Under the pieces are notes generated by a model. That model was not told the DNA's origin. It was given only the letters and a program-made list of their open reading frames with translations, and made no database searches. Position numbers and translations under genes: made by a program. 64,000 nucleotides of DNA from Phoronis australis. Lineage: Eukaryota; Animalia; Phoronida. Location: assembly GCA_002633005.1 (NCBI GenBank), contig NMRA01000686.1, forward strand, positions 1-64,000, read 5' to 3'. Of this stretch, positions 838 through 64,000 are shown one piece after another. Each line of letters starts with the position of its first letter. Position 1 is the first letter of the stretch.

Positions 838-1029
838 GTAACGTCCTACCACTTATCACAGCGTAGTTTTATAGAGAGGGACAGGTGCTGGCACAACGGT
901 TGGCGCGATGATTGCGAATTTACGAGACGTCTCTACTCGGCCACTTAATGTATTTGAGCATTGAAAAAGTCTCATAGCCTAGTGATGCCGCTTTTCTGGA
1001 AACACCAAATTTTACTCCACCAAAAGTAA

Positions 1030-29320: not shown

Positions 29321-32300
29321 TAGTCTAGACGCATTTCTGGAAAATGTGCATGTTAGAGGCATTTTTTAGTAAAAGTGGAGAACCTATCTTTTTAGCATAA
29401 TTATGGTATGCTGATTTCGATTACGCCTGTTCCCAAGCTGGATTTTGAGTTTTTGACCATCTAATTTGCATAAACAAAATGGCCGCCAAACCAACAGGAT
29501 AAGAAACATTCGTAAGACCAGGAGTACAATATGTGACGAATAATTAGGAAATTTTTGCTTCAAAAACATAATGTAAGTGTGTTTAGATCACTCAAATTTA
29601 AGAGCATATTAATGAACGTCATTAAATTCCCCAATTATGCTAATTAGCTTCCGCCATTACCAAAAAATTCAAATTTCGGTGTAACTTTATCAATTTGCAG
29701 GCAAACATGACAACTAAGGTGTCTATACCTATGTTTTGAAGGTCTAGAAAAATCATTATGACACATGTGAAGCTTTTTATTTCATCTTCACTAAGTCACA
29801 AATGTTCATTAATAAGGTCTGAAAATTAAATTAGAAATCGCTTTTTGCGAACATCTCACTATTTAGATAGGACATAAAAGTATTGTAAACATAACAACAT
29901 GACTTTTAAATACTGTTGTAAAGAGATGCGTGGCCATATCGTCCCATTTTGGACAGGAACATACCGTCCTCACAGTCGACCAAGCGCTCTGCTGCAGATT
30001 AATGGAGCTTACGTGGTCGGTCCCAGAATACCAAAATATGTTAATACAGTACCTCGTTTAGTGGCTCTTCACGTATCAATGAACTTTATCAAGGCCACAG
30101 AAGATCACCTGAGTGATTCCGGAATAGCTGAGGTGTGTATAGAGAGTGCAGTACTTGGAACTGGTCCTCAGAGGAAAGTCGTACAGCAAAGCTACAGTAT
30201 GAGGGCACACAAACTGTCTTTGCAAGCTCTGTGGCATCTCCTGCGAGTGTCAAGCCTTCTCTCGTTTATTGCAGAAGCGACTGTCATGCTTGTATTACCA
30301 GTATGTCTGCAGATGATGATCCACAGAAAATTCCGGAGTTTTTAACATTTCTTAATTAGGATAAGTTCAGGAAACTCCTGGGCATTTTGTCAACAGTAGT
30401 TCTGATGATGTGAATTTCAGCTTCTGGTGGAGTTACGTGTACATCGTTCCAATATTGTAAAAGTACACATGCTCTCAACGGAATGGTATTTTGGAACTGC
30501 ATCTCTATTCATTTACTCTCGTACTGCCTCACCGAATTATGCTCGAGTGTGGTGCGGTCTTTTTAGCGGAGATACATCAGCTTCCACTGCAGTCTGTTTG
30601 GTCAGAGTTTCAAGCAGGAAATTTTGTAGTCAAACGCTCTCCTCATTTGCTCTGTCAGGTAGATGCTGACCAATGGGTAAATGGGGCAGGCAAAAAGGAG
30701 GGGGTATCATCGGTAATACCAAAACCTCGTCAGCTCTATAGAGGTGGACACTCTCATTTAATCTGAAATCTCATATAGCTGAACAAACTTACTGCTGTGG
30801 GAGTACATAGTTTCATAACGAAGCCACGAGGCAACTGTTGAGAGTTCCCTTCTTTACGCATTCCATGGATTGAAGGTCTTCTCATCCGCAAGGCCTTAGC
30901 TGCTACAAAGCCTTGCAACAAAAGACCTAGCAACAGCACTAATCCAAGAGTCACTTTTACATGCTAAGGAACTTGGACACGAACAAACTAAGAAATTTGT
31001 TCGAGACCGATTATCACTGAGCAATGCGATAATTCAGACATGTCAATTCACGCGCCTATGCGCAAAAATAATACCCCAACATTTGCCAACTTACATGATG
31101 TGGTGAAACAATCCAAAGACAAAGACAAGAAAATAGTTCTTAAGGCACAGAGAGATATACTTCACTGCCTAGCTATGGCTTATGAGGTGGGTCGGCCAGT
31201 TGATTTGCCGTCTGTGCTCAAACGCGAGCTTCTTCCCGTCCATGTTTTCTTACAGAAACGAGTGGCACATTGCGCACTGGAGATAAATCTTCACTTGCCG
31301 AAGTATTAATAGTCAACACATCGAGTGTCCTACAACAATTCAACTTCATGGCATGCCCGCTTGCCTCATTATTGATGGCGAAGCATTGATGGTAGCTCTT
31401 GGGAAGCTTCATGGTGATGTGACCTTTGAGAACCTGACTGATTCATTCATGAAAACAGTGCTAAACACAGGATTTCGATATCATAAAATTGACATTGTAT
31501 TTGACAGATACAGACAAGAAACTATGAAATACACAAATTACAGGAAAACAGCGTAGTAAAGGAATACAGAAAATCAGGTGATTTTTGGAAGGCCGTGGTG
31601 TACCTCTTCCTCAAAACTGGTCAAATTTTCAGGCACTGGCTGAGAATAAAGAAGACCTAGCACATTTCCTGTCAGAGGAATTGTGTTTGTAGACGCCTGA
31701 AGATAAAGAGTTTATGGTTGCAGGAGGGTTCAAAGATGAGCTGGAAGTAAATTAAATCATCTAAGGTTATGACTGACTTGAGGACTCTGAAATCCACACA
31801 TGAAGAAGCAGATGCTAGACTGGTACTGCATGCTGTCCACATTCAATCGTATTTCCAGAGACACCCGATGTTCTACTGCTTCTGGTATCGCACTTCCAAC
31901 AAATGCAAAGTGAGCATATCTGTATGATGTCAGGCACATCAAAGAAATGACGATATATACATACTGAAGCACTTTTCAACAAACTACTAAGAGACTCAAC
32001 AACATCCTTTTTTGCTTTTCATGCCGTGACCGGGTTTGGCACCAACTCGTACTTTGCCAATCACATGAAACTATCATCATGGAAGGTGTTCCTAGAGCAT
32101 CACAGATTGCTTAAGAACCCCTGCATTGGTGAAATCACTGAGCAAATTACGATGGCTTCAGAAGTATTTGTCTGCAGAATATACAACACGACCTGTAGAT
32201 GTAGCACGCCATTTACTATTCTCCAACCCCGTGAACCCAGAAGTCCTTCCCCCTCACCCATAATGCCCGCCGTTTCCATCTGATGAGAGTGCACTATCAG

Positions 32301-41285: not shown

Positions 41286-43699
41286 AACCCTTGAATAATG
41301 ACAGGAAGGGATTTCATGTATATGAGGTCATTTTTTCATGGGCTAAAACTCTTCACATTAAATTTAGACCCTGTGAAAAAACTAGCCCGGGTCATTTTTC
41401 GCGGGGTCATTAATTAATGCTACACCAGCTCGGTTGGGTACATATTTCCACTCGGTTTAGAGTGAGAAATTCTGTATTTTGGGTATAGGTCGGATGAGCA
41501 TTTCTGTCATACAGATTTGATATTTTGGTTACTATGCACTTTACTTTTTGCGCAAGTTTTGAATCACAAAAGAAAGAGCAAGCAGTGCAAATCCACAAAA
41601 TTTCCAATATCAATTTTAACATAAGTACAAATTTTGCAGGGATCTGATTGTTTTAATGCAACAGAAGAAATCTGATTTCGAATTACTTGGTTAAGAAATG
41701 AGTTTTCAAAGCAGAGTCTGTTTCAACAGAAGATATATTATTGACTCAGATGTATTGATTTTGATGGCTAACGAGTGGGTTCGCGGATGTTATTTTTCAG
41801 AACAGGTAAAAATACATATGATTGTCATTGATACCAAATATTTACTTAAGTACAATTAACAAACAGCAGCAGCATTGAATAACAGCATATGCTGGTCAAT
41901 AAGTGTCTTTTAAATTGAGGTTATATATAATTTCAATCACCAAGACTGATGCGCAAACAACGCATAATCGCTCCGCTAAAACTATTTTGGCAGAACTTAA
42001 AAACCCAGTGGCAGCACATCTAAACTCCATGATCGAACCAAACAAACCCATGACTCAGAGGCAGGACCAAAGTACTTAACTCTTTGGCTACAAGCATAGC
42101 ACTGCGAGCCCGCCGATTTTTTGTCAGATGCCGTAGGTCTCCCAGTGTTTTCAGCCATTTTTGTCCTGTGTAATACTCTCCAATGGGGCGTCATATTGAT
42201 AACGCGAGCTGCATGTATCTAAGTGGCGCGCGCCCCGTCTATGTGCTGCTGTGGCTTCCACAAATGCATATTTTCATGTCCGAAAAAGGCGTATATATGT
42301 GGACTTTCCTCACAACTCCTCAATATAGCACTATTAAAAAAAAACACAAAAAACAACGGCAAATGCGGTCTTCCATCCATTGCGTACAAATCTGATAACA
42401 TAAAAAACATTTGTGTTTGATTGTGGCTCGTTTCTTGGTATCTGGTGTATCAAAGGCTTTTTATATCTCTTAAGATGTATAAATAAAATTCCTGTTGCGA
42501 CACAGGGTCGTGGTGGGTCCTCTTTTCCTGGGAAACGCGTGCCGCATGAACGGGGCACGGAGCATCGAGCAATCTGCCACTAAAAGCGCGGTCATCAGAT
42601 CAGTAAATCGCAAATGCTTCGAAAACGTTAAGTGTGAACCAGGAACTTATAGATCAGTACAGATAGATGTATAGATTGGTGTGTATACCCCTCAAATTTC
42701 ACCCAATGGATTCGTGAATGACTGGATGCACTGTAGTCCAGTGATTCTAGGGCTCCAGAGGGCCCAACCTAGAAAAAACGACAACAGGAGGTTTTTTTTT
42801 TGCATGAACGGCATCTTCAAACATCCCTTGGTGGCAGAAAAAAAATCTACCGTAAAATAAAACCAATATGGCCGACAAAATGGCGGCCGAAACGGGAATT
42901 TGGTACATGTTGCAAGATTTCTTTTTATATTTTGCCCTGAAAATGGCAAAAGTGTGATTCTTTTGTAAGTTAGGCAAATGAAAATATCTGAACATTACAA
43001 TTAGTCACTGGTTCACGAGAAAAAAAAAAACAAGATGGCTGACAAAATGGCCGCCAAAATAGCTGACAATTCAAAAACCCCAATTTACCGCATTTACGTT
43101 CTGCAAACTTTGTTTGTAACCTGATACGCATTTACACAAAAGCATTTTACAATCTATCATCAGGGTTAATGAGTTGATTATTTCTATTATTTGTTTTTAA
43201 GATTTATATACAAAAAGTGGAATTTTAATCATATTTAGATTATATAACATAAAAGTTAGCGTGTTTTTCAGAAAAGGCTTTAGTTATATTTTCACAATAC
43301 ATTTCACAAACTCAATTATTTTTCTGTAAAATATATTGATTTGAGGTATCAAAATAATATTTGTAAGAAAAATATTTTATTCTGGTGGAGTCATTGGCTT
43401 ATTCATTACACAAACCCTTAATAAAATTGGGCAGAAAGTGGCTTTTTTCTCTGCTACTGGAGATATTGTTAGTTGTTTCCAAGCATCGATTTCGTCTGCT
43501 GCTGGCATGTATTGAGAATTTGGCTGCTGATTTCACCTGAGTTTGATGAAAAGCAAACAGGATTGTGTAACGAAAAGTTATTAATTAAACTTTAATAGTT
43601 AGGACCCAAAATTTGTTTAATATGCATGCTTTTTATGAACATAAGTAACTGCTTTTGGAGGAAATTAGTGCCTGCAAACAAAACGACAGTGGTCTGCAG

Positions 43700-46600
43700 T
43701 CACTTCTTCTTAGCCAGGCTTGGAAGATTTCATACTGAGATGAGCTTTCTGGGATGCGTTGGATACGTAATGTCAAGCACAGGGCTTCAAGGAGTTCTTG
43801 AGACGGTGTATGCATCAAACAGTGTGATCCTTGTGTTAAATGGAAAAAGTGTGGATAGAGCAGTGAGGGGCCATATGTTGGTAGACTCAGCACTGAATGC
43901 TATCATAAAAACCAGAGCATTCAACATCCCACTTCCAAATTTTGACAGATCAAGTAATGCCAATCCAAAACCAATGAAGAAAGAAATTCAGGTTCTTCCG
44001 AAATTCCAGGAGCCCGGAATGTCACCAACACAGAACACACAGATTCCATGCCAAGAGGTGGAGCACTTCAATGCTTGTACACAAATTTTGGCTCGTCAGA
44101 ATATGTAGACAGGTTCTTCAGACATCTCAGACATCCCAACTGATCACATAACAGGATGTATACTATGGGGCATGCCATACTCAGCCAGTGTCTTCCAATT
44201 CTGAACCTTGGATTATAGTGGAATGCCCTCACGAGAGTTCACTTCTGGCCTACTGCCATTGGTATATTCAAACACGACTGAATCAAAGTATAGGTCTTCA
44301 GAATTCGCGGTGACAGAGAATAATTCGTCAGAAGAATCGATGGCCAATGATGATTTAAGAGATGGTCTGAAGTGGTATGATGATCTTATTGCTGGCATGA
44401 CTGCTGTGTGCGACGATGTATGCTAGTAGGAGTGTCTTTTGTGTATCCATAAAAATCGAAGCACATAAATCAGACTTGTCCTTGCAAAGTCGATTCATTA
44501 GTCTTTAGCTGCAGTATATGAAGATGACTGACATCCTTCGACTTTTTTAAAAGCAGAAATAACGCCAGATTGGGAGTTTCCCTTAAAAGCAGTTTCTGAA
44601 GTGCTGTCTTACTTTGCAGCTGCTGGTCACAACTCTTATGCAAATCTTCATACATATACTTGAAGCAGACGTAGCAACTCAAAGACACCCGTCCACACGT
44701 CTACGGCCAACACACCATAAGACAATTAAAGAGACAGATTCTGGGCAGGCCTGTCATAATGAGCTATGATGAACAAACGCTCATGAAACGTATTAAAACA
44801 ACAGGAGGTTTAACTAGAGTTTGCGAAATGGGAGATACACAGAGTGCACCGTGGCTGCTTTCCTTGCCGGCATGCTCAAGTACAAATGGTGCCATGCAGA
44901 CTGCGACAAACCTGAGTTGTGAAACAAGTCAGCAGCATGACGTACCCAGGCAAGACAGTCGCGTGACGACAAAGACCCATTTTAAAGAGAAACATTACAG
45001 AACATCACCACTGATGTGACTGCAGGCACATGCCTCAGTGCCAAAAATGCCAGAGAAGTGGGGAAGGCGGTTCACTTGTCTATGGAGATGTCAAGTGTGA
45101 AAGACTTCACATTCAGAATAAAGACAATGTTGTGGCAATGACAAGTCAATCAACTCATGCTGCTAATAGTAATTTTACACAAGTGGATCCGCGACTGCTA
45201 TTTCAGTGAATCTTGACAGCAGCAAAAGACAACAGTGAAAGTTCATAAAGCCTTTTGAAGTTTGAGGTGTGTGTTGGTTTCCCTGCTCTTTTGATATAAC
45301 TGTGCCCGGTCTCTAATCTTTGTACTCGAAACGAACTCGATACTATTTTGGCAATTTCCCTGCTCCTTTTGTGCAAACTTAAGATAATTGGTTATCAGAC
45401 TGTGCTCGAATACATTATAGTTTATGCACTGGAGTTTCTAGTTCAAGTTTGCCCTTGAAGACCCTTATATTTGTGCTACAAACTCGAGTAAAAACTCGAA
45501 ATTCCGAGTTCAAACTCGAACTTTTTGCTTTAATATTAGGTTTACAAACTGTGAACTAAGGGCAATACATTATCTACGTAAGTTACACTGTATTGTGTAC
45601 TCGAGCATAGAATAATAGACACTTATTTTGAGTTCGCCCAAAAGTAGAGTAGAAAATGCCAAACCTAATTTCGAGTTCCATTTCGAGTAAAAGATTGGAG
45701 ACGGGCCCTGGTCTTCTGAGAGTCGCTAATGAATCAATATGAGCTGATGCACTCTGGACCAGTGGGGGACTACCTGAGGATTTCAATTGACAGAAAACAC
45801 GGTGATGCATGTAATCGACAGCAGATCTTTCCTTCACGGTATTCCATGGCCAAGAGGTGCAAAGTTTCAGTCATTTGGTAGAGCTTATGTGGATTACATC
45901 AGCAAGTGCACCCAGCTACTGATGTTTTTGATGGTTACTGAGATGGACCATCAGCTAAAGATGTCTCTCATGTTTGAAGACTGGGTGGGGTGGTTGGAAC
46001 TGAAATCACTTCAATGATGACATGGTGATCAAGTAAAAAAGGAACATTTTTGGCAAAAAGCAAAAACAAACAACGATTCACTCACTTCTTGTCAAGTTTG
46101 CTAGGAAATTCTGATTGCACAGTGGTACAAGCTCGAGGTGACGCAGATATTTTAATTGTAGAAACAGCAGTAGAGAACGCAGCACAAGGTCCTACTACCC
46201 TCATTGCAGAAGATAAAGATTTGTTGGTTCTTTTGCGTTACCATGCTACTTCACAACAAATTCCATTGTTCATGGAATTTGACAAGTGGCACCAAAGCAA
46301 GAGGAGAGTCTGAGACATCAAGAAACTACAGTTGTCTCTTGATTCCGAAACTTGCGCAGTTTTTTTCATTTGTGCATGCAACACAACATTACAGCTGTTC
46401 AGTATCAGGAAAGGCTCTCCCATTCAAGAAACTGCGTGATCGACAATTCTGCAAAAACCCTAGTAAGAATATTCACTAGACACATGCAACTGAAGCAAGA
46501 CATATTTAAAGCTGGTAAGAGTTGTATCTGTGCTTCATGGCGGTACTAGCTCTAGAAATTTGGATGACTTGCAATACAGGTAACGTGTGGGGGAGGTGTC

Positions 46601-46945: not shown

Positions 46946-49900
46946 AGCTCTGTAAATACTGGTTGACTGTGTATAGAATCACTAGCATTTACATCTAACT
47001 GGAAGTGACACAGACAGTGTGGATACTAGGTCACTGAATTAATTGCAGAGTTATTTTCATTACAGCACATTTTTAGGAGATGAATGATCCTTCAGTCCAG
47101 GCAAACCTGATGCTTTTGACCCAAATAAGTCATTCGTTAAACCATCTGGAAAATGGTAGTCATAATCATCAACAGTTCGACAAAAAGTTATTGTAATGGA
47201 CGTGCTGACCTAAAAAACTCAGGATATGGCGTGTCTCTTGAATCTGAAGTTCTTACAGGAAGCAACTATTTGGTGGTCATATTAGAAAATGGTGGAAGTA
47301 ATCATTAGAACCAAACGCGCAATGAGTCTAAATGGATTAGTCGACCCAGAAAACCTATGATACAATGCTTGAAGCAAGACGACATCTGTCTGTGCGAAAT
47401 TGTGTGATTCAAAATAGTTTTGGAGGCCATCTTGGAAAATGGCTGATGTTGACCCACAAAAGATAGGTAAACATTTTTTGAATTTTTACTTTATAACATT
47501 CCACTCTCGAGTTATAATGATCATCTGCAAATCTGGCGGCCATTTTGTCCGCCATCTTGGAAACGGTGAAGGTAATCATTAGTGCCAAATGCAACGAGTC
47601 TTAATGGATTAGTCGACCCGGAAAACCTACGATGCGATGTTTGAAGCAAGACGACACACTAACCTGTTCATGCGAGGTTGTGCGACTAAAGTTGGCCTAC
47701 ATGTAGCGGCCATCTTGGAAAATGGCGGACGGTGTCACCACAACCATGCAAAACCATTTCCAATGGATTTGTTGACCCAAAAAACATGGGTAAACCTCTC
47801 GAGCCATTTTGTCCGCCATCTTGAAAAAACAAATTCCGCCACTCCGATTCCGGTAGCTTTTTTTCCCACTAAGGGGTGTGAAAGGATACGATTTATTCAA
47901 TAAAACCTTCTGTTGCAATTTTTCCCGGGTTATCCGTAGAATGACTGGACTACTGGGAGTCCTTCAATTAAAGAGAAGTCATCGGAAAATATCGGAGAAC
48001 GTTTACATGTTTAAGAAAGGTACATTCATTGCAAAATAGCGCCTCTTTCGACTGTAATGAAGTCTTCTTTAAATGCAAAAAATCTTCAGTCCTTGGGAAT
48101 AGTAAATTAGTTTTTTCGTTTGATTTATATGAAAAATGAACGTAAGGTATTCATAAGTAGAAGTCATATTACTCACATTACTCAAAAACTGTGTGGTTAT
48201 ATTGGAAATCTGAAGTGAAATTGAACAAAGAAAAAATAAATATTACGTTTGGACAGTTTCAGAGAAATTCATTCTGCTGTCTTTGCGAAGTCGTGTTCCT
48301 AAGTGCAAATTAAGTCGGTTTGCCAAAGCCGAGATCAAGCCGATTTTGTTGCGAGACGTGAAAATCTCAAACACATCGGTTAATTGTTCAGAGGAAACGT
48401 TTTCACTCAGTGTAAACTGCGCATGCCCTAACCATGTTCGCTATTTCAACATCCACGCGCATTGTCAACTGAATTTGCCGAGCGTAATTAACTTAATCTC
48501 GCAGAAACATTTTATGATCATAGTCGATTAACAATGCATCCAATCCAACTAAATTATGTGGCTGTAAACCAATAAGTGGGTTAACCTGATGCATTCTGGT
48601 CGACTACAAAGTACATGTAGGTCAACTGTGCATTGTAATACACATAGAGGGACTTGAATTGTTAAAAGAAATCGAGTTGATGGTTAAAGCGCGTCGTGAG
48701 CATGAGATCGAAACGACAAAATTGGAAATTACCGATCAAATTAGGGAATTAGTGTGAGAATTCATCTCTTATCACAACTTGCTTTATTCGTGAAAACAAT
48801 GTCGCAGAGACGTGAAGTGACTTCAGCTCCCTCTCATCGGTCGTATGCATTTAGACGCCCAACTCCCTCATGATCAAACTTATGTTTTATTTCCATTTCT
48901 CAATATGGTGGTTACTCGGTAAATGAAAGGACTGAGGGTACATAGTTAGCTGAATGCAATCGAAAAACTCGATAAACTTAAGCACATTAATCTATAAAGA
49001 GTAACAAATTACACCTCGATATACAATCCGAAGAGCGGTGTTCCCACTCCAAATTGTAAAAGAATCCCTGAAACTGCGTAAAGCGAACCTCCGGGAAACG
49101 ACTGTGACTGTACATGTATACAAGATTTAGTACTAATACATCCAAAGACAACAAGCCTGGAACTTTAAATAAATACGTGTTGAATGCAAGTTATGTTGAT
49201 GAAACAAAAATGTGTCCTGAAGAGTGGGAATGATAGACCAAAATAAGAGCAATCGGAGGATATCGCTAAATCTCGAGAATGGTTGGCTAGAATTACAAGC
49301 GAATGGTGTCTGGTGATAGCCCTTTTAAAGTCGACCGGCATGACATATTCACGTAAAATTCGATGACGGTCAACGGAGATATGGCACACAGAACTAATGA
49401 CGATTTATTGGAATAAAGACTGAATTAACCAAGAACTTGTGTAAAGATGCCAGCAAATCAAACGGAACGACACATGAAATTTTTGATGACATGTAAGCGC
49501 ATAGAAATTTTTGGAAAAAGCCTCGGAAGACCTTGAACCTAGAGCTCTGCAAAGCAAGCATCATCCTTGGGAAAACCATGGGCTCAGATAAGTAACCGAT
49601 ATGAAAATTGTGTGGTAATTTCGAATGCATCGAAATGCGCCTTGGGAGACGAGCCTTTCAATGAATATCGGGACCATGTTTATTACCGACTGGTTCCCTT
49701 GAAAGAAATACGTGGTGGTTTTGAATTCAGTCATAATTGCCTAGCAGGCGCGTGGAATTAGGAAGTTGAACGAAACCCCTTTTTCAGTTCCTCTGCATTA
49801 ACATCGAAAAAATACATGCAAATATCTTGTGCTTCCCCATTTCATAAGATTTGATGGCGTTGATTGAAAATCTGTAACGTACCTATTATGGCAATTCGAT

Positions 49901-51496
49901 AACGATCCTCTCGTTATCAACAGCTTGTGCTGGCTGAAATAAAAAAGTGTGTAGATTTGACCCAAGAGGATCTTGACTAATTTGACANGCGCGTGGAATT
50001 AGGAAGTTGAACGAAACCCCTTTTTCAGTTCCTCTGCATTAACATCGAAAAAATACATGCAAATATCTTGTGCTTCCCCATTTCATAAGATTTGATGGCG
50101 TTGATTGAAAATCTGTATCGTACCTATTATGGCAATTCGATAACGATCTTCTCGTTATCAACAGCTTGTGCTGGCTGAAATAAAAAAGTGTGTAGATTTG
50201 ACCCAAGAGGATCTTGACTAATTTGACAAATTGACATAAATTGCCAAAAACTAATGTACTCTTGAGGGGGGTTATAAAATGGGCAAAACTGTACCTGCAG
50301 ATTTTCTGTGCCTAATGAACAGCCCGGCGATTCAAATGGACCGTGGAAATACGCCCGACACTCAGTTTACGACACTAAATGAGCACTGTCCAGCCAACCT
50401 TTGGAATATGATTCCGGTAAATTGAATATTTCATAAACAAACAACTTCCAGACATGTTTTGATATCAGTAAAACGCAAGTATTTAACATCTATTCATTAA
50501 TATTTTATTTTGGAACAACTACATTTTTCTTTGTTAAGGAGGAAAAAATTAAAACAAAAGGTCGCAAAAAGAACGGGCTAGGGTATGTATATCGCCAATG
50601 CACTGTTTTTAGAATCAAAAAGATACTGGATGAGTGAATGTCTGCCTATATGAACGCAACAAACTCAAGGTCATGGACAAAGCATCTTGTCAGATGTTCA
50701 ACACGCTTGACGGAAAGACTGTTATCGTAGTGTTTGAAATAGAAAAGTGCTTTAGTTATACACATCATTTTAATCAATTTCAACCGTGTCTTCTAAAGTC
50801 ACTGAAACGGTTATACGTGTAGCTGCACAGACATGCCATACTTTTTGGAAGCGGCAGTTCCAGTCAAAGGTATTGCACAGAATTTATAATAGTTGGTAAT
50901 TCAGATAGAATACAGTACTATACTGTCTGTTTAGTGCAATAACTTATTTAAGAAAGAACAATGATTTTCCGTGAATGTTTGCTTTAACTGCACCCTCACC
51001 TACTGCAATTATTGTATTTAGTGCATATACGTGTATAGTACTGTTAATCATGTTTTCACTACATTACTGCTGTATTTATCTTCATTTTGCTCGTGTGTTC
51101 TTTGTTCATTTATTTTGCGGTTTGTTAATTTTAAATCGATGTATTCTCCCATGTATTATTTGTATGTGGCTATGTGACAAATGGTCGGGAATTCTTCTTC
51201 TCGTGGCCTAGCACGATAGGCAGTGTCGGGGTATCCATTAAGCTTGCTTAGCTACACAACAGGTCACCTGTTTCACTTCCTAGGCAAAGGGGGCAACTAT
51301 GGCGAGGGAGGCGTGAATCTTGGAAGCTGTGGCAAGATAAAATGCTTGGGTGACCGGAGGGCAGGCGGAAAGTACAACGGTGATGGGAGTTAAAATCAGG
51401 ATGTAACAGTGCCCCAGCTTTGTTTTATATTACCGGTAGAGATCGGAGAAACCTTTATTCGGAATTGGCGATATAGTGAATCCTGGTCTGTTTCAG

Positions 51497-52867: not shown

Positions 52868-55800
52868 CTTGTTACTCTGCGCGAGCAAGCGCAGAGTACT
52901 GTTGTTCCTGGGTTTTCTTCAATATTATTCTTATTACTCTGCGCGTGCATGCGCAGAGTACTGTTGTTCCTGGGTTTTCTTCAATTTTATTCTTATTCTT
53001 ATTCTTATTACTCTGCGTGTGCAAGCGCAGACTTTTACTGTTCTACGTATTTTATCTCCTTATTACTCTGCGCGTGCAAGCGCAGAGTTTTACTGTTCAA
53101 ATTCTACTGATCCCTTTGATGTGACTCAAAATGCACCGGATTGACCCGAAATGGGTCAACGGGTGCATTCCATCAAAGTGCATCTTCTCCTACAGGTTCT
53201 TAGATAGACTCTCCGAATTTTGTTAACAAAAAGGCACTATAAATCTGAATCCGAAATTTACGTGGCATTGAAATCGGATCAAGGGTACCGCGTTTCCGGG
53301 ACAAAGGTCATTAGGTGTAGAAGTGATTTTTGAGCTAGACCTCACATAACCACGTATATAGTTTTCATTCGTAAAGAAAATTCAGTCACAAACTTTTGGG
53401 TCATTAAGTGTAACTGTGTGGCCATTATTTGCAGTTTAACGCTGATATTCTTTCTCTTCACTCTTGCTCTTGGATAGTTCCCAGGGACATCTCCCCTTTT
53501 CACATAAAGGATTCAACATCTATGCAATGTAATGCCCTATACTTCACTATGCACATGCATACACCACGCGCAGAGTTGTAAGTGCGTATATGCAATTGCG
53601 TTCTAGTTATTATTCTTCTTCTTCCTTCCTTTTCATATTGTTATTTCTCTGACATTCATTCATTTAGAATAATAATAGTCATTGTTATTCATAAGATAGT
53701 TAAGGGATTTATATTGAGAATATTTTTTCGACCCTAAATGCACTAGGATGACCTGAAACGGGTCAATTAGTGCAATTTTTCAAAATGTTTTTACAGTTTT
53801 TTAGATAGACCCTTCGAATTTTGTTAACATGGATTTCCAATCGGACCAAGGGAACCGAGTTTCCGGGTCAAAAGTCATTAAGTGCAAAAGTGAGTTTTGA
53901 GCTAGACCTTTCATAACCATGCATATGATTACCACTCATAAAGGAATTTCAGTCAAAAACTTTTGGGTCACTGGGTGCAATTTTGGGGTCATTAAGTGAA
54001 CTTTTCTGTTAAGTTTAAAGTTTTTCAATCAGCTAGTACTTAATTGATGCATTAGTGAGGGCGTTCAAATTCATTGTGGTTCAACCGATTGCCGATCAAA
54101 TTCTATTGATCCCATGGATTTGACTCAAAATGCATCGGATTGCCCCAAAAAGAGTCATGGATTGCATTCCGTCGAATTGCTTCTCCTTCTAAAATTTTTA
54201 GATAGACTCTTCGAATTTTGATAGCAAGAAGGCACTAGAGATCTGCATCCCAAATTTACTTGGAGTTCCAATCAGATCGAAGAAATCGAGTTTCCGGATC
54301 AAAGTTCATTAAGTGCAAAAGTGATTTTTGAGCTTCAGGTTTCATAATCATGCATATGATTACCATTCATAAAGGAAGTTTAGTCACAAACTTTTGTGTC
54401 AATAGGTGCAACTTTGGGGTCACTAAGTGCAGTTATTTTGTAAAATTTAAGACTTTTTAATCAGCTTGTATTTAATTGATGCATTAGGAAGAGCGTTCAA
54501 ATTCATAATGGTTCCACCAATTGCCCATCAAATTCTATTGATAGTACGTGTAATGACCCAAAATGCACTATAGGACCGCAACAGGGTCGACCAGTATAAT
54601 TCTTTGAAGTGCTTCTCCTTCTGCGATTTTTGAGATTGCCTTTCAAATTTCGTGAACATCTTGGTACCATATAAGAGCACCTACAACTTACATGGAATTT
54701 CGATCTGATCAACTGAACCGAATTTCTGGGAGAAAGGTCAGTAATTGCAAAAGAGATTTTTGAGCTAGACTTTTCATAATCATGAATATCATTTTCATTG
54801 GCAAAGGAAATCCATTCAAAAATTTTAGGGTCATTAGGTGCAACTGTGGGGTCATTAAGTGCATTTTACTATTGATATTCTAACTTTTCACTCTTGCTCT
54901 TTCATAGTTACCAGGGACATCTCTCTCTTTCACACAAAAGATGCAACTTCTATGCAATGTAATGCACCTGTACTCCATTCTGCATGTGCGTACACCACGC
55001 GCAGAGTTGTAAGTGCGCATACGCAATTAGGTTCTAGTTCTTATTCTTATTCTTCTTCCGACCAACATTGACACTTAATAACTCCAAAATGTTTGCAGGT
55101 ATGTTCTTCAAAATTAAAATATGAAGTTAGGCAGTATATCAATTTTGATTCATTATATAATCATATTCCATAATGCACCGGAAGAGGCCATTTGGTGCAA
55201 AGGACATGTAATTTTCAAAACGCTACTCTTATAATTTAAAAGCTATTCCTCTCAAATTCGGTACACAGGCATAAGTCAATAAGGCAATTAAAAAAATACT
55301 TTTCTAAGTAATCGGGCCATCCAATCAGGTTAAACAGGCCTAAGGTCATTGGGTGCTAGACACTTCAAATTCACAGGTCTGATTAGCACAGGTAATTCAA
55401 TTCGGAATCCAAACTTCAGGTCACTTAGTGCAAACATGGGATCATTAGGAGCATTTTTATGAAAATTTGACCTTTTCGTTCACCAAGTATTCTGATGTGT
55501 CAACTGTTAGACAACTGTGATTCTCAGCATTAAAGACATTTTTCACGGGTTTTGTAATAATTCTCCTCAAAACGCTTATAACGCACTGGGTAGGGTCAAT
55601 TAGTGCAAAGGTCATCTAACGCTCAAAATGTTATATCTCACGTTCTTCAAGGAATTCTTTTCAATTTCAGCACATTGGTGTAAGTCAACATGCCAATTGA
55701 ACAACCTACATTATTACGCAATAGGCCTAGCCAATCAGAAAAATAGGTCAAAGGTCATCGAGTGCAAAATAAATTGTTGAGCTTGAGACTTCAATATTAC

Positions 55801-56306
55801 ATATCTGTTTACTAAATGCGATTGAGTTTGAATTCTAAATTTTCAGTTCATTTGGTGCACCCATGGGGTCATTAGGTGCATTTTTCTTCTGAAAGTTTGA
55901 CCAATTCATTCATTTTGTATTGTGTAGTGCGTGAAGTAAAACCTCTGGGATTCTTAGCATTAACCACATATTAAGTCGAGTTTACAATTGTTCCCTGATC
56001 AGGGTTCATAATGCACCGGAAGATGTCAATTAGTGGAAAGGTCATCAAAATATTAACATGTAACTTCGCCTAAAATTTTAAAGAATTCCTTTTTTAGATT
56101 GGTAAACAGGTTGCTAACGGGTCAGTAACGTCCCAAAGCAATTCCAGTAATGCGCACGCGTAGAGACCATTATTGTCACGCCGTGACAATAATCTTTCTA
56201 GTTCTTATTTTTATTCTTATTCTTCTTCCGACAAACTTTGACACTTAATAACTGCAAAATGGTTGCAGTTATGCTCTTCAAATTTATTATATGATTTTAG
56301 GCAGTA
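52868..56306 (+). mobile_element. Head-to-tail Helentron/HINE-like array (3' CTAG ends at 53606, 55037 and 56201)
   Basis: 5' tandem ACTCTGCGCGTGCAAGCGCAGAGT hairpins at 52873-53090. Each unit ends with a CACGCG(C/T)AGAG repeat, a hairpin and CTAG|TT. Same families as at 1-16.6 kb but in the opposite orientation. Confidence 0.75.
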
Positions 56307-59300
56307 CAGCACACATCACGAATTTTTGTCCGCACGGTCGGAAATTGGTCGACGACCGGCCGTCGACCGGTCGTCTAGCCGACCAGCAGCCGACCCACAA
56401 CGCATGAAAACGGAAGACTGTGATTGGTTTATAGTGTCATCCATCATCATTCTGAAATTGTTGTCACTTTCACTGTAAAGAATCGTTTCGAAACTAGAGC
56501 ATTCCTATCTAGCCAGCTAGTTGTATAAAGACTATTTTCAAAATACAGCAAGGTGCCACTGCTTATTGAGATCCATCATACCTCGAAACTTCACACAGCC
56601 CAGATAGTTACGCTTGTCACCTCGTCGAAAAGCTTGTATCAACATGAGCTCAAGACCGGCGGGTGTGCAAGCAAAATCTAGAAGTCAATTGGCATTCAAG
56701 TTGCCCGTTATGGCCGTTTAAGCGAAAAACATCCGACGTCATCTTCCTGCGTAATTCTCTGCCTTTTTTAACGAAAAAACGTATGCCGTCGTTTAGAAAA
56801 AAGTTCATTCGTGACACGTACCACTTCCAAAATGTTTTCAACATCTCTCATTAGATGATGACAACATCTCAGCAAAATTTGTTCTAAAATTCGGTTCACT
56901 GATATCAAAATTCCAAAAACATATAATGAAGTGAAACCAATTCTTATCATTTGTTGTGACGTTTACGCAACCTCTTTGGAGAACGTTTGATTGAAGAATC
57001 TGTGAAAAAGAAACTGGCTAAAAGGTGACGCAATATTTCATTGGGTCGAAAGTCGACGCATAAGATCACACCATAACTTAAGCAGCAGAATAATTGTAAA
57101 AAAACATTTTTGCAACGCTGGTAAATAATTTAGATTACTCTAGGAAGATTTTATTCGGTCAGTTTTTACCCACAATGGCACAAATTTGTATATTTAATTT
57201 AATAAACAGCTTCGCACCAAGGCTAGAGCCTTCCGAGCCCTTTGGCGTAAGAACACAATACTTGGTGTTTTGCGTATACTTCAAGGGTTAAAACTTTGAA
57301 AATAATATTTTTGGGGTAACCTGGTACATGTAATCCTAAAAAAGTAATTTGTGTTTTCATGTAGAGCGTAAAAATGATTAACCCATTGATTCAAAAAGAA
57401 CACTGTCGCAAACGAAAACGCACACAATTTTCAGCTATATTACACTGGTTAAAAACAACTTCTATAAGTTTATTGCCTCGGATTCTAGTGATCACCAGGG
57501 CAAGTCAAAACTCTTAAGGGGGCGCAATTTCAAACCTTTGGCATGAATCAGTGATATAAAAATGGAAATAGACCGACTAAAGTTCATCAGCAATGTAGAC
57601 ACAACAGTTACGGACACTGACTGCGTTTGTTAACGTCTTGTGGCAATGATAAAAATATTTTTTTTCTACTATGATTGATAACAAGTTTTACTCTGATGAG
57701 GTATGATGCAATATGAATGTCTAATATGCAGATCGGCAGTTGCAAAAATTTTTACTGGGTTTAATGAATCCGTTTGTTATGAACCACTGTAAAGTATGAT
57801 TACTTATTGTACATTCGAAGCACGCCTCCTTAGAATAAAAACATACTGGTGCTTGTTGATCCTGGGTGTACTTCTGTTACAGGCATGAATGAAGATATAT
57901 AGTTGTTAAGCCATAGAGGATAATAAAGCTTACATAACATCACACTGAGCCATCTACACCAGGCATATACAAAGGATACAGTATTTCAAAAGAAGCCTCA
58001 ACTACTCATTTTTCATAGTCATAACTACTCATTTTTCATAGTATTACTAAATCACGAACACCTAGATTTATATAAGAAGTTACATAGTACGATGCTACAC
58101 AACCTGCTCTCCCACATTTATGGGAGGCCTAATTTGAAACATTTAACGACATATCTTTTTTATGCAAGATTAAAACCAAGCAAAACATGTGAAACTCTCC
58201 AGAACTAAAAATAAATATCTCAAAACCAGAAATTTTACTTAAGCAGGAATTAAAACTATTCAATACATTGAGATTGTTTTCACCCAGTAGACCACAGAGC
58301 AAATAAAGACCAAAAATCACCACGTCAAATTCTTCACTTCAGGATCAAAATAAAATACGACCGAACTGAAAATTTAATAAGTCAGGTTCAAAAACTTACC
58401 GTGTCAGTAACTTTCACGCCAGAACACCACGTCACCATCCCCAAGCATGGATCTTTCAAAGTGATAATGTCCATACTGCATGTATACATATAAACAAAGG
58501 CTATATGTTCAACCTCTCGCCGACAACAGACCTCTTATCTTGGAAATGCAGTTGAATTTTTGTTGTCTATTCCACGTTTTACAATAGATGCCAATGTATA
58601 AGTACACACTGGATTGTAACCATTGCATAATGGGTGATCAGGTAGCCTCCGGGCTTGAAAACAACTCTCTCTCCTGGCGTGATAAGTTTTCTGACACAAT
58701 GAATCCTGGTTGCCAATTGTTTTTGATTCTACAGAGATTTCAATTCCTGAATAGAAAATGTGTGTTCTGGATGTTTTCGCATCAGCTTTCCATTCAGCTA
58801 ACTAGTGTACAGCACAGTGTTTTACTATCCCGTGGCTGCTCCACTGCAACGAATCACTTCTAATACAACCTTCCGTAAATGACGTTCGTATTTTGCACAT
58901 TTCTTCTTGGTAACAATTTTCCAAGAGCTATATATTCATTGGATAAGAATACCAGTCTCAGGTAGTCCTTGAGCTCATGCTCTGAATGTTTTGAACACAC
59001 AACTCTTTCTTTACGCAGATACCGTTTTCTGCCCGTGGACACCGACTAGCTGAATTCATCAACCAAACATTTATTTTTAAAGTGTACTTTTTTAAAACAC
59101 CGAGTTGACCATAGTCGTCAGTGTAGAAAAGCGAAATGAACATTTTGTACACAGTGCTCAAAGCATACGGACATACGGAAACGCCAACGCCTCTCTGTCT
59201 TACAACGCTGCGTGTACTTGGCATTTCATTTCATGCTGGAAACTTTTTTAAGACTGAGCACCGTTTCAAAAAATAGTATTTTTTCTTACAGCTGAGAAAA

Positions 59301-59691
59301 GAAGAATTATTCTGCGATTTTAGGACTGAAATAGAACAAAATCTCGAGTGGTGACTCATTAGAATGTGCAAACCTCGGGGGGGGGGGGATGGCGATTTAT
59401 ATACAAGCATGATTTATTTATTTTTTATTTTTATTTTGGAGTTGCCACTTCTCATTCTACCTAAGGTGGCCAGATCATACGCTATCAATATCACCAGACG
59501 CTTTGCTACTCAAAAGTGCACCTTTGTGTATTTTCTATCATTTTTGCCATTGCAATCGCTTTACCAAAGGTTTGCGCACATATGCCGCGTAGTGAATACT
59601 TCTTCATCACATATTCACATCTTGCCGTTCACAATTATTTTATTTTGCATAATTTNCCGACCGGGCGGACAAAAATTCGTGATGTGTGCTG
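56307..59691. mobile_element. TA-flanked TIR element (Tc1/mariner-like termini), non-autonomous
   Basis: TA|CAGCACACATCACGAATTTTTGTCCGC ... GCGGACAAAAATTCGTGATGTGTGCTG|TA. Removing it restores the host repeat GCAGTATAT.AATTT.GATTC. Caveat: there is a contig join (N) at 59656 inside it. Confidence 0.62.
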
Positions 59692-60485
59692 TATATAAAT
59701 TTGGATTCATTGTATATTCATATTCCATAATGCACCGGGAGAGGTCATTTGGTGCAAAGGTCATGTAATTTTCAAAGTTCTACTTCTTCTTTATTTTAAA
59801 AGCTATTCTTTTCAAATTCGGTACATAGGTATAAGTCAGTAAGGCAATTTTAAAAATTACTTTTCTAAATAATCGGGTAATCCAATCAGGTTGAACCGGT
59901 CAAAGGACAATAGGTGCAAACTAAGATTTTAAGCTAGACACTTCAAATTCGCAGGTCTGATTGGCACAGGTAATTCAATTTGGAATCCAAAGTTTCAGTT
60001 CATTTAGTGCAAACATGGGGTCATTAGATGCATTTTCGTCTAAAAATTTGTCCTTTACATTCATCAAGTTTTCTGATGTGTTAACCGTTAGACAACTGTG
60101 ATTCTCAGCATTAAACACATTTTTCATGGGCTTTGCAATAATTCTCCTTAAAGGCGAAGGCAACCTTTTTCCATGTCATTTTGAGCTAAAATAAGGTTGG
60201 TTGGTTATCCTAGACATATTTTTCACTTAATTACAGCTTTTCGTAATTTTATTAATTACTCGTCCGCTTTTCCGGAAGTGACGTTTTAGGAGGCAAGCGC
60301 TTCCCGCCACTTGGTTTTGCGTTGAGCTTACTGTGCGAATCTGTTCTATTCTACTTTTGTTTTGCGCTATTTTTCACCAATTGTCGCCACCACTTTCCAT
60401 CGGCGAGTATTCTGCGGCAAGATAGGTTAGTAGAGAACTCAACTGCGTTGGATTTAGGGATTGTTTAGTGTGTTGTAAGCTGAAA

Positions 60486-60760
60486 ATGGCTGGAGTCGGT
60501 GACCCGTATCACAGTGACAGTAGTGTGAGTGACGGAGACCTTGTTCACAGCAGTGGTGACGAGGAATTTTTTCACGGACATTCAGTGGGTGGGTACATGT
60601 TTGAGCCCGAGTACAACGAGGCAGAGTACACACAGGCACAGGCAGCTGTTGAGAGAAACGAGGCGGCTACTGAAGACAGACGTGGTGACACATCTTGGTG
60701 CAAATGCACTGTGTGCGTTGTTATGCCTACCTCAATTGAATGCTTGTGCTGTTCCGAGTT
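60486..60760 (+). pseudogene. KolX-like protein (P2X7 cytoplasmic ballast-like, Cys-rich), 3' truncated
   Basis: An acidic N-terminus, then YMFEPE...WCKCTVCVVMPTSIECLCCSE. The sequence after 60760 is antisense transposase. Confidence 0.8.
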
Positions 60761-61827
60761 CCACATCAATTATCTTTTTGGTCTCTTCCTCCATTAGAGT
60801 GTATGTGGTATACTTGGCGGACCGCCCTGGTGAGTCAGACAAGTTCTCCTTCTCCATGAATTCCGCCACCAACTCGAGATGTTGTGACATGTATGCGTCA
60901 TTGACAACTGGTATTAAATAGGAATTCTGAATGTTGTTGAATGTTGTTTTCGAAAAAAAACTTGACTTTTCCAAAGTCCATCATTGTCTTCACCGACTGA
61001 AACGTGTTTCCAGTGAAGAGCACACCACTGGACATGGTTAAGTGGACCTCCGGCATACCACGGACAGAGGAACAACTGTCCCACTTGCCAGAGTGTCCCG
61101 TGACACACTCCCACTGGATGGTGACCTGAGCACCCAAACTGCTTACATTGTGTCGTGTGACTCCCTCGCCACACACCTGGCACCTTCTAAATAGCTCCAA
61201 CACTTTAGACAAGTCCACAATAAACTTATCAAAGTTTGGCTCACCGATCTGTTCACTGGACGACGAACTGTCCTCTTCACTGGGTGTCGAACTGGGCCTG
61301 TAATCACTCCCACTACTCAATATCGCTGCAGGGCTGCTTAGAGGCTCTGGGCTGGAGAAAACAGCACAGGGCGAATCACTACTGGTTCCAGGAATTGCAC
61401 GCTCTGGGGTACGTTCGGAGGCACGGGTGACAGTAGATGAAGTGCCTCCACTGGCTCCAGTCACTGTACTGGCCACAGCTCGCGAGGCTTCTCGCTTCAA
61501 AAACGCACTTCTCGGGGGTGGCGACGGGGCACTGCCGGGAATCAACACAGACGGAATGGCATCCTTCTTCAAGCGTTGTTTCGCGGGGACCTTCATCAGT
61601 TCAGCGTACAAATCCCTTTCGTAATCGGACGGCAGAAAGTGCTTGCCACACACACGGTAATTCTCCACTGCTTTGTACGTTGCGTGGACGGGTAACGCTG
61701 CGTTCTTCACACGAACGAGCCAAGTACGGCGAAGTGTGTCATCCATCGGAAAGCGATGCAAAGGCACTCCCAAAGCGCGCGTGAGCCGATAATTACTACA
61801 TCCCGGTACGCAGCAACAGTGTGGCAT
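60756..61827 (-). pseudogene. Kolobok THAP-domain DDE transposase, frameshifted and truncated
   Basis: THAP domain MPHCCCVPGC...LHRFP...W...VCGKHF...DAIPS, a Ser-rich linker and a CQVC...C..GH zinc motif. After a frameshift in the A8 run at 60953-60960 it continues ...DSPGRSAKYTTYTLM...KIIDVEL and then breaks off. Confidence 0.85.
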
Positions 61828-63435
61828 GTTGACTGACTAGTAAATGAAAGCGAACGACGACGGAACTTAACACAACCGAGGTAGAACAATGACTGACTCG
61901 GCAGCTCTCACAGTCAGACTATGTGAAAAGAAATTGGCGGGAAGCGCTTGCCTCCTAAAACGTCACTTCCGGAAAAGCGGACGAATAATTAATAAAATTA
62001 CGAAAAGCTGTAATTAAGTGAAAAATATGTCTAGGATAACCAACCAACCTTATTTTAGCTCAAAATGATATGGAAAAAGGTTGCCTTCGCCTTTAAGACG
62101 CTTATAATGCACCGGATAGGGTCAATTAGTGCAAAGGTCATCTAACGTTCAAAATGTTATATCTCTTACGTTTTTTAAGGAATTCTTTTCAATTTCAGCA
62201 CACTAGTGTAAGTCAATATGCCAATTGAACAACATAAATTACTACGCAATAGGCCTAACCAATCCGAAAAAAAACAGGTCAAAGGTCATTGAGTGCAAAC
62301 TAAAATTTTGAGCTAGAGATTTCAAAATTTCATATCTGCTTAGTGAATGAGATTGAGTTTGAATTCTAAATGTTCAGGTCTATTGGTGCACCCATAGGGT
62401 CATTAGGTACATTTTTCTTTTGAAAGTTTGACCAATTCATTCATCTTGTATTCTGAAGTAAAACATCTATGATTCTTAGCATTAACCACACTTTAAATTG
62501 ATTTTATAATTATTCCCTCATCGCAGTTCATAATGCACCGAAAGAGGTCAATTTGTGGAAAGGTCATCAAAATATTAACATGTAATTTCTCCTACAATTT
62601 GAAAGAATTCCTTTTCATATTGCTAAACGGGTTGCTGTCAGTAACTTCCCATAACAATTCCTTTAATACGCACGCGCAGAGTCCATGTCACGTACGAAAA
62701 AGGGAGCATGTATTATTTGACGAAGTTTAAGAACTTATAAGACCAACAGGTAAGCTGTACGCAAAAAAAAACCCGGAAAATGTAGGATCGGGCCTACACA
62801 CAAATTGGCACGGGAAGTCTTCCAAAACCAAACGTTCAATCGATGTTGTAATGAGATAATGAATGACATAACTACTATCTAATTCATAAATAGTGTATTT
62901 GATTCCCGGTAATGGAACTTCGTGTCGGTAGCAATGAGGTTTCACAATACTGGAGGTACCCAAAGCACACTGCAGTGGCAATTTATGAAGCGGGTGAGTG
63001 GCAAACAGCAGTTACCCTTCTTCCGCCCTTGGTAAGGGACAACTTAGGTATTGTCGGCTACAAGTAAACTTACACAAAGTCAAACACTGATTATGATAGA
63101 GTGCCCCAAAACTCAACGTTTACTGGGTTCAAAGCAAGGTTTGGCTATAGCCAGTGACCGGAGCGCTTAGTGTTGAGATGTAGTTTCAAGCGCGCCAAAT
63201 CATTCTTCCGGCTTTGAAATAACATCATTCTATATGGACAAAGGTATGTATGTAAACGCGAAGTTATTCCCATGAATATGCATCAGATACATTATGCGTT
63301 ACGCAGATGTTTTACACAACGGCGTAGCCTGTGTAGTTTTGTCTTAACTCGTTTTACAGTTTCGAGTCATATGTTTCAGCTATTTGGAGAAGGCTCTGAA
63401 TTCTCGATATTTGATTTCGTGAACAACTTGAAAGN

Positions 63436-64000
63436 CCGACCGGGCGGACAAAAATTCGTGATGTGTGCTGTATATAAATTTGGATTCATTGTATATTCAT
63501 ATTCCATAATGTACCGGGAGAGGTCATTTGGTGCAAAGGTCATGTAATTTTCAAAGTTCTACTTCTTCTTTATTTTAAAAGGTATTCTTTTCAAATTCGG
63601 TACATAGGTATAAGTCAGTAAGGCAATTATAAAAATTACTTTTCTAAATAATCGGGTAATCCAATCAGGTTGAACCGGTCAAAGGACAATAGGTGCAAAC
63701 TAAGATTTTAAGCTAGACACTTCAAATTCACAGGTCTGATTGGCACAGGTAATTCAATTTGGAATCCAAAGTTTCAGTTCATTTAGTGCAAAAATGGGTT
63801 CATTAGGTGCATTTTCACACTGATTATGTTAGAGTGCCCCAAAACTCAACGTTTACTGGGTTCAAAGCAAGGTTTGGCTATAGCCAGTGACTAAGCGCTT
63901 AGTGTTGAGATGTAGTTTCAAGCGCGCCAAATCATTCTTCCGGCTTTGAAATAACATCATTCTATATGGACAAAGGTATGTATGTAAACGCGTGGTTATT
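63436..64000 (+). other. Second copy (probable alternate haplotype) of 59657-60037 joined directly to a copy of 63084-63270
   Basis: Both copies start CCGACCGGGCGGACAAAAATTCG immediately after a single N (59656 and 63435) and differ by scattered SNPs. Confidence 0.8.

What the first reader, a model, noticed from the sequence alone, without database searches (positions are those of the whole stretch)
60152..62092. Two-gene Kolobok transposon with convergent THAP-transposase and P2X7-ballast-like (KolX) genes
Seen: near-perfect 158-bp TIRs, a TTAA TSD and two inward-facing ORFs. One is THAP plus zinc finger plus the start of a DDE core (DSPG.SAKY). The other is acidic with a YMFEPE...WCxCxxC..MPT..ECxCC cluster. 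Established: Kolobok elements carry a THAP-DDE transposase and a second protein (KolX) related to the cytoplasmic ballast domain of P2X7, whose role in transposition is unresolved. Inference: this is a recently mobile, non-autonomous derivative, so an intact two-component autonomous partner probably exists in this genome and could be used to test KolX function.
Basis: partly seen in the sequence, partly recalled or inferred. Interest (0 to 1): 0.8.

Follow-up and report, generated by a model that had tools for sequence, protein, structure and literature searches.

The report
Gutted Kolobok transposon with KolX stub
This is a young but broken copy of a known two-gene jumping element (Kolobok): its ends are intact, the middle of both genes is deleted, and the working parent that likely moved it was not found, so it is ordinary and cannot itself test what the second gene does.

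Summary
The anatomy is confirmed: a 1,941-bp element with 158-bp TIRs (156/158 identical), AG…CT ends and a true TTAA duplication, shown by empty sites in paralogous host repeats. The two inward-facing genes are a THAP transposase (Pfam 4e-15) and KolX (P2RX7_C, at its cut-off). Neither is whole. One internal deletion (about 1 kb, inferred) removes the second Asp, DxxH and Glu of the transposase and the second half of KolX. Public reads show a repeated family with at least three deletion forms. Two are non-nested, so a longer parent existed recently, but no listed read or contig continues into the missing middle (tables cut, no genome held). Convergent transposase plus KolX also occurs in 3 of 3 distant loci fetched. 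The KolX–P2X7 link was published in 2022. Verdict: a non-autonomous Kol0 Kolobok derivative, a new member of a known kind. Side leads: an ETS-CRE plus E2F-like motif in each TIR, and a possible THAP-only repressor. Interest 0.2.

The parts
60148..60151 (.). Left TTAA target-site duplication
60152..60309 (+). Left terminal inverted repeat, 158 bp, starts AG
   Evidence: 156 of 158 identical to the right TIR
60272..60284 (+). ETS plus half-CRE composite motif in the left TIR, facing inward; an E2F-like site follows at 60301-60308
   Evidence: only copies in the window are the two TIRs; motif defined in PMC4555227; promoter function inferred
60486..60761 (+). KolX 5' remnant, 92 codons: acidic stretch, YMFEPE, CxCxxC and CC; the frame runs on through antisense transposase DNA to a stop at 60797
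   Evidence: PF20478 profile positions 54-100 of 192; ESM Atlas first hit 0.94 P2RX7_C cluster; tblastn to L003 5e-10 and L001 7e-6
60756..60762 (.). Internal-deletion junction (60761|60762); the six bases coding E-F of KolX read E-L of the transposase on the other strand, a likely microhomology
   Evidence: microhomology inferred
60762..60960 (-). Transposase remnant in the second frame, ending 30 residues after the first catalytic Asp position
   Evidence: 58% identity to P0005 248-325 with a 7-residue gap
60837..60838 (-). Site of a 21-bp in-frame deletion (7 codons, LLGDGRS) that removes the first catalytic Asp
   Evidence: an X5 contig with the same large junction keeps the 21 bases (tables 4 and 8); gap in BLASTP; Asp invariant in alignment A2
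60953..60960 (-). A8 run with one extra base: frameshift of the transposase
   Evidence: the shorter allele is in a minority of contigs and in 8 of 48 and 6 of 45 RNA reads
60898..61827 (-). Transposase 5' ORF, 309 aa: THAP (residues 5-94, about 61546-61815), Ser-rich linker, C-x2-C..C-x3-H cluster (216-245), then out of frame
61935..62092 (-). Right terminal inverted repeat, with the same ETS/half-CRE (61960-61972) and E2F-like (61936-61943) motifs
62093..62096 (.). Right TTAA target-site duplication
59656..60147 (.). Host repeat (about 430-bp period family) into which the element is inserted; continues at 62097 to about 62620

Best explanation
It is a non-autonomous internal-deletion derivative of a Kol0 (Kolobok0) DNA transposon, with intact ends and broken genes, likely moved in trans by a full-length parent's transposase. 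Shown: TIRs, TTAA duplication, insertion into an older repeat, truncation of both genes, loss of all three catalytic positions, many similar copies, and two sister deletion forms. Inferred: the parent was about 3 kb, with a THAP-DDE transposase read from the right end and KolX read from the left, each likely driven by the promoter-like motif in its TIR. A microhomology-mediated deletion, likely during gap repair after excision, removed about 1 kb from the middle. The shortened copy then multiplied by cut-and-paste at TTAA while collecting a frameshift and a 21-bp deletion. The copy makes no working transposase. Its KolX stub lacks the half with the predicted GDP-binding arginines, so it is likely inert.
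For: Ends and TSD. THAP and P2RX7_C hits; Atlas 0.94, 212 of 256 features shared. The remnant aligns to full transposases with GDGRxDSPG, TDR, DxWH and TGxLE motifs (6 of 150 hits have all four in order), and by eye to Kolobok_1_XT and Kolobok_1_BF in Data S5 of PMC9587614. Same convergent layout in 3 of 3 fetched loci; L001 has TTAA|AG...CT|TTAA ends and about 177-bp TIRs. The window's junction is bridged by contigs of X5 and X6 (55 letters on the short side; 0 differences over 197 nt in X6), and the exact 103-aa product is on a separate 1,480-nt record. 86 X1 contigs leave the alignment at the TTAA with unlike flanks (agreement 0.33). Form B (KolX plus 13 nt, joined to 61023) is in 8 of 8 runs laid and in P0172; its extra residues begin with the Asp also seen in L001 and L002, so it did not arise from the window form.
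Against: The Pfam KolX hit is only 0.5 bit above cut-off (the sister form P0172 falls 0.1 bit below); the Atlas recognition score (1478) is under its 2300 mark; phmmer against the PDB found nothing at E up to 10. No tree placement in Kol0 was made. The parent was not seen, so deletion size, microhomology and mobilisation in trans are inferred. Contig depths are not copy numbers.
Confidence: 0.92

Rival explanations
1. On the partner question: the autonomous parent is already lost or very rare, so the family is orphaned or moved by another Kolobok transposase. This is compatible with the best explanation and opposes the first reader's 'intact partner probably exists'.
For: Loose ends behind 60761 (52 reads in each of two RNA runs, agreement 0.97 and 0.95) run into form B; no listed loose end lies before 60762 in any of 8 runs. 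Searches for proteins of 542-2000 aa and 164-2000 aa found 0 hits. The closest core-bearing protein among 150 hits is 52% identical.
Against: TIRs differ at only 2 of 158 sites, and forms A and B differ at about 6 sites in 360 bases, so a parent was active recently. One or two parent copies would be swamped by derivatives; tables were cut; only 18-19% of each RNA run was read; the word-index searches are weak for long proteins.
Confidence: 0.4
2. The derivatives are not inert: they make a THAP-only protein that binds the element's ends and represses transposition, like the P-element KP protein.
For: All three forms keep the THAP frame's 5' part; it is open for 309 aa here; the family is in RNA reads. 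10 of 23 listed variants in this frame are synonymous, against 0.23 expected at equal rates. PMC6004289 proposes such suppression for catalytically dead Xenopus Kolobok proteins; KP is described in PMC7776569.
Against: Internal deletions keep 5' ends by geometry. Other copies have frameshifting indels inside the THAP coding part (61715, 61717, 61762, 61767). The variant list holds only the best-supported rows and mixes subfamilies that diverged while still coding; transition bias was not modelled. RNA strand is unresolved and may be read-through.
Confidence: 0.12
3. The fusion of the two gene halves is an assembly error in a repeat-rich window.
For: The window has N gaps and duplicated blocks.
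Against: The same junction is bridged in X5 and X6 contigs and on a separate protein record; RNA reads cover the form-A-specific segment.
Confidence: 0.02
4. It is a compact but functional two-gene transposon as it stands, for example through splicing or frameshifting.
For: Both start codons and both ends are intact.
Against: The second Asp, DxxH and Glu are physically absent and the first Asp is deleted; no splice-like joint could supply them.
Confidence: 0.01

Closest known systems
Kolobok superfamily, Kol0 (Kolobok0) lineage, type Kolobok-1_XT (PMC9587614; parts 1 and 3 of 6, KolX passages, supplement 3 parts 105-106 seen)
   Same: TTAA duplication, RR...YY ends, THAP transposase whose first-Asp region matches Kolobok_1_XT and Kolobok_1_BF, second gene KolX with the ballast cysteine cluster.
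   Different: Non-autonomous: catalytic triad gone, KolX halved. Its TIR motif was not found in that paper's 4 supplementary files; Repbase itself was not searchable.
T2-MITEs and truncated XKol copies of Xenopus (PMC6004289; part 1 of 7 and passages seen)
   Same: Non-autonomous TTAA elements presumed to be moved by Kolobok transposases.
   Different: Keeps 1.3 kb of gene remnants; the terminus is AGGCG, not the AGGRR of T2-MITEs.
P2X7 cytoplasmic ballast, Nanor and ZCD proteins (PF20478; PMC7016195 and PMC8410900, passages seen)
   Same: N-terminal zinc-cysteine cluster.
   Different: No channel domain; the C-terminal half with the conserved R546, R578 and C572 equivalents is deleted.
P-element KP derivative (PMC7776569, passages seen)
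   Same: Internally deleted, amplified element that keeps an open THAP frame.
   Different: Different superfamily; repressor activity is untested here.

Membership tests
Kolobok superfamily (non-autonomous members included) | TTAA target-site duplication | tested here: met
Kolobok superfamily (non-autonomous members included) | Terminal inverted repeats with 5'-RR and YY-3' ends | tested here: met
   AG...CT, 156 of 158 identical; definition
Kolobok superfamily (non-autonomous members included) | Sequence derived from a THAP-bearing Kolobok DDE transposase | tested here: met
   PF05485 4e-15; 58% to P0005 around the first Asp; DSPG region matches Kolobok_1_XT, BF, AP, NV by eye
Kol0 (Kolobok0) lineage | Second gene KolX homologous to the P2X7 ballast | tested here: met
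   PF20478 24.0 vs 23.5 bits on a half-length stub; Atlas 0.94; homologs beside transposases in L001-L003
Kol0 (Kolobok0) lineage | Placement in the Kol0 clade on a tree of the DDE core | not tested
   The copy lacks the core and the reference alignment was only read, not loaded
Autonomous Kol0 element | Intact D-D-E triad with DxxH signature in one frame | tested here: not met
   first Asp deleted, the rest absent, frameshift upstream
Autonomous Kol0 element | Full KolX with 7 conserved zinc cysteines | tested here: not met
   profile positions 101-192 missing; CxCxxC and CC kept, which is 5 of 7 by recalled P2X7 numbering; Figure S6 is an image and was not seen
KolobokP | Long terminal direct repeats and His-Me finger nuclease | tested here: not met
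   only inverted ends; first-Asp motif differs
piggyBac with KolX-like gene | Non-RR termini, and a KolX-like protein lacking most of the seven cysteines | tested here: not met
   ends are AG...CT and the cysteine cluster is present (definitions)

The most novel reading that the evidence does not exclude
The long TIRs are twin promoters: each holds an ETS/half-CRE composite and an E2F-like site that fire the transposase and KolX genes head-on under one host programme. After the middle is deleted they keep producing a THAP-only, KP-like repressor, which would explain why all three amplified forms keep the transposase 5' part while KolX is halved or dropped.
Probability: 0.12. Interest if true: 0.5.

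Novelty: new member of a known kind. Interest (0 to 1): 0.2.

Why it matters
KolX function is still open: my searches of the held library found one paper naming KolX and 3 papers with both 'Kolobok' and 'transposition assay', each naming Kolobok once (listing only). A young family with an intact parent would allow a test with and without KolX. This copy gives the cis ends for such an assay and shows the family moved recently, but supplies neither protein. The KolX-less fold-back form suggests KolX DNA is not needed in cis. Otherwise it is an ordinary decaying transposon.

Tried and rejected
No whole genome is held, so the genome-wide search could not be run. Protein searches for longer relatives gave 0 of 5,625 and 0 of 83 candidates; the near-length KolX search gave 2 of 2, both copies of this family. 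Locus searches with P0001 found nothing in metagenome or viral contigs; a 22-base TIR pattern found 0 metagenome matches; alignment A2 found nothing in viral contigs; P0005 had no phage match. PDB searches: none for KolX, only weak THAP hits (E 0.04 and 0.3) and chance hits for A2. No run on record as RNA was listed as a holder; X5 is only guessed RNA and carries host-repeat joints, so it was treated as DNA-like. RNA runs X13 and X14 have similar counts for both mate directions and an unspecified library, so direction of transcription could not be read. Rfam found 0 matches in 53000-64000. The sigma-70 scan is irrelevant to an animal sequence and gave chance levels. One search was translated in the wrong frame and redone. 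The ETS-CRE composite is not kept in L001's TIRs; only the half-CRE is, 159 bases in from both ends. In L003 the composite sits in a separate nested inverted repeat, facing outward. No fold or complex prediction was run, because no intact KolX was available (L001 and L002 are frameshifted, L003 gives one exon). Earlier findings by sequence: 0 look-alikes; by six words: 0.

Full report
Observation. The element spans 60152-62092 (1,941 bp). Its first 158 bases match the reverse complement of its last 158 at 156 positions, and it reads TTAA|AG...CT|TTAA. Only one other inverted pair of 95% identity or more exists in the window, and it is 43 bp long; TTAA on both sides has a chance of about 5e-5. 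The element sits inside an older repeat of about 430-bp period that recurs across the window. The flanks joined over one TTAA align at 89-93% to the 5 best paralogous copies with no gap at the site, and these carry a single 4-mer there. One X1 contig skips exactly element plus one TTAA. The duplication is therefore a true target-site duplication.

The transposase. The minus-strand ORF 61827-60898 (309 aa) has a THAP domain (PF05485, 4e-15), a Ser-rich linker and a C-x2-C..C-x3-H cluster. It leaves its frame at an A8 run (60953-60960). The other frame continues to DSPGRSAKYTTYT and stops being transposase at 60762. A search of 1.84 billion representatives gave 1,668 hits at E up to 0.001; the best core-bearing one, P0005, is 52% identical. 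BLASTP of the second-frame piece against P0005 gives 58% identity with a 7-residue gap over LLGDGR. An X5 contig with the same large junction carries 21 more bases at 60837, which by hand translation give those codons. That Asp is invariant in 7 aligned relatives and lies where the published alignment 'from the first D' begins for Kolobok_1_XT and Kolobok_1_BF (PMC9587614, Data S5). In 6 of 150 hits all four motifs occur in order, with a median 331 residues from first Asp to end; this copy keeps 30. No catalytic residue is left.

KolX. The plus-strand ORF from 60486 hits PF20478 P2RX7_C at 24.0 bits (cut-off 23.5) over profile positions 54-100 of 192. The ESM Atlas ranks a P2RX7_C cluster first (0.94; 212 of 256 features; family on 26% of members; recognition score under the tool's mark). 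Two overlapping alternative frames hit no Pfam family. The PDB search found nothing. KolX DNA ends at 60761; the last 11 residues come from antisense transposase. The missing half holds the equivalents of R546, R578 and C572, which PMC7016195 reports as conserved in invertebrate ballast proteins. KolX as a Kol0 accessory protein and source of the P2X7 ballast is stated in PMC9587614.

Layout in relatives. An alignment search of prokaryote genome bins returned 3 loci, evidently animal DNA in the bins (inferred from introns and microsatellites). All 3 have the transposase on one strand and a KolX homolog facing it (E 5e-10, 7e-6, and 0.07 for a frameshifted one). L001 is bounded by TTAA|AG...CT|TTAA with about 177-bp TIRs, 4.0 kb including a long CA tract. 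The points that are joined in the window lie about 1.0 kb apart in L001, so the parent was likely near 3 kb.

The family. Ten runs from 5 studies hold part of the element, 5 of them half or more of its words. I laid 8 of the 15 listed runs. In X1, 86 contigs leave the alignment at the TTAA with unlike flanks; both ends and all forms count here. Form A (window) is bridged by contigs in X5 and X6; its specific segment has far lower depth than the rest in X1 and X4 and none in X7 and X8. Form B keeps 13 more KolX bases and joins at 61023; it is in 8 of 8 runs and in protein P0172. Its extra residues start with the Asp also seen in L001 and L002, so A and B are non-nested and both come from a longer parent. 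Form C joins 61059 to an inverted copy of the transposase start (61784-61813, 27 of 30 letters; 192 and 201 RNA reads) and likely lacks KolX; its far end is inferred. Within form A the frameshift is absent from a minority (8 of 48 and 6 of 45 RNA reads) and the 21 bases are present in X5 but absent in X6, so copies kept spreading while decaying.

The partner. No listed loose end continues either gene into the missing middle. The 52 loose reads behind 60761 in each RNA run agree with form B at 0.97 and 0.95. This is weak evidence: 628 and 123 rows were not shown, 18-19% of each RNA run was read, and rare parents hide among many derivatives. No genome is held. I put the odds that an intact parent remains at roughly even.

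Expression. About 2,000 reads per RNA run lie on 60400-61120, with both mate directions similar and the library type unspecified. They carry many frameshifting indels and a stop in KolX, as expected from many decayed copies. Among the best-supported variants, 5 of 18 in KolX and 10 of 23 in the transposase frame are synonymous, against 0.20 and 0.23 at equal rates; 303 and 154 variant rows were not shown, so this is no selection test.

TIR motifs. Prompted by earlier scan notes, I looked inside the TIR. It holds CCGGAAGTGACGT at positions 121-133, the first 13 bases of the ETS-CRE promoter motif of PMC4555227, and an E2F-like octamer (label recalled) at its inner edge. In 200,000 base shuffles, 2 held the 12-mer and 2,635 an E2F-like site; the motifs were picked by eye first, so these numbers overstate. 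L001 keeps only the half-CRE, 159 bases in from each end. Twin inward promoters are a plausible, untested reason for the long TIRs.

Mechanism. Shown: ends, duplication, truncations, copy family. From established knowledge of DDE elements (PMC6004289): such copies move only with transposase supplied in trans. Inferred: microhomology-mediated deletion after excision, mobilisation by the parent, promoter role of the TIRs. KolX's own role cannot be read from this copy.

Literature seen. PMC9587614: parts 1 and 3 of 6, KolX passages, supplement list, passages and parts 105-106 of file 3; Figure S6 is an image and was not seen. PMC6004289: part 1 of 7 and passages. PMC7016195, PMC8410900, PMC7776569: passages. 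PMC4555227: abstract and opening. PMC3464117: listing only. The original Repbase description of Kolobok was not seen, so whether it already reports the convergent layout is not checked. Searches for KolX or Kolobok papers.

Verdict. Observation confirmed, interpretation partly supported. A young non-autonomous Kol0 Kolobok derivative in an animal genome (taxon not determined; the nearest named protein hit is a limpet protein at 41%). New member of a known kind; interest 0.2.

Noticed in passing
window 1028-2764, 11324-15122, 53827-56306, 59656-60151, 62093-62686, 63435-63828: A repeat family with about 430-bp internal tandem units (roughly 65-85% alike) occurs in several blocks on both strands, some bordered by 61-62-bp tandem units; the Kolobok copy is inserted in one block. 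Family not identified; no Rfam match in 53000-64000.
   Followed up: partly
window 61059 and 61784-61813: A fold-back sister form (C) joins 61059 to an inverted copy of the transposase start; it is abundant in RNA reads and likely has no KolX.
   Followed up: partly
window 61023-61033: Form B reads differ from the window at 61026 in a way that continues the KolX frame (K-P-L-L-D), hinting at an imperfect 11-base microhomology at that junction too.
   Followed up: no
L001:4619-8617: Near full-length Kol0 element (TTAA, about 177-bp TIRs, THAP exon plus 549-aa core ORF, spliced but frameshifted KolX) inside a bacterial genome bin; likely animal contamination, as are L002 and L003. Its TIRs hold a half-CRE and a YY1-like site (label recalled).
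   Followed up: partly
L003:7957-8630: A small element with 75-bp inverted arms lies between transposase and KolX, with an ETS-CRE decamer in each arm facing outward.
   Followed up: no
proteins P0008, P0009, P0028: Fish proteins keep the THAP-like and zinc-cluster parts of this transposase type but lack the catalytic core; many annotated isoforms in groupers and clownfish suggest a domesticated Kolobok gene.
   Followed up: no
window 4906-6565, 7479-7729, 49748-50228, 59656-59955 with 63435-63734: Near-identical direct duplications beside N characters look like assembly artefacts.
   Followed up: no
window 29878-30345 and 43599-44108: Two stop-free frames of 155 and 169 aa that look like fragments of another decayed mobile-element protein (impression only).
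   Followed up: no
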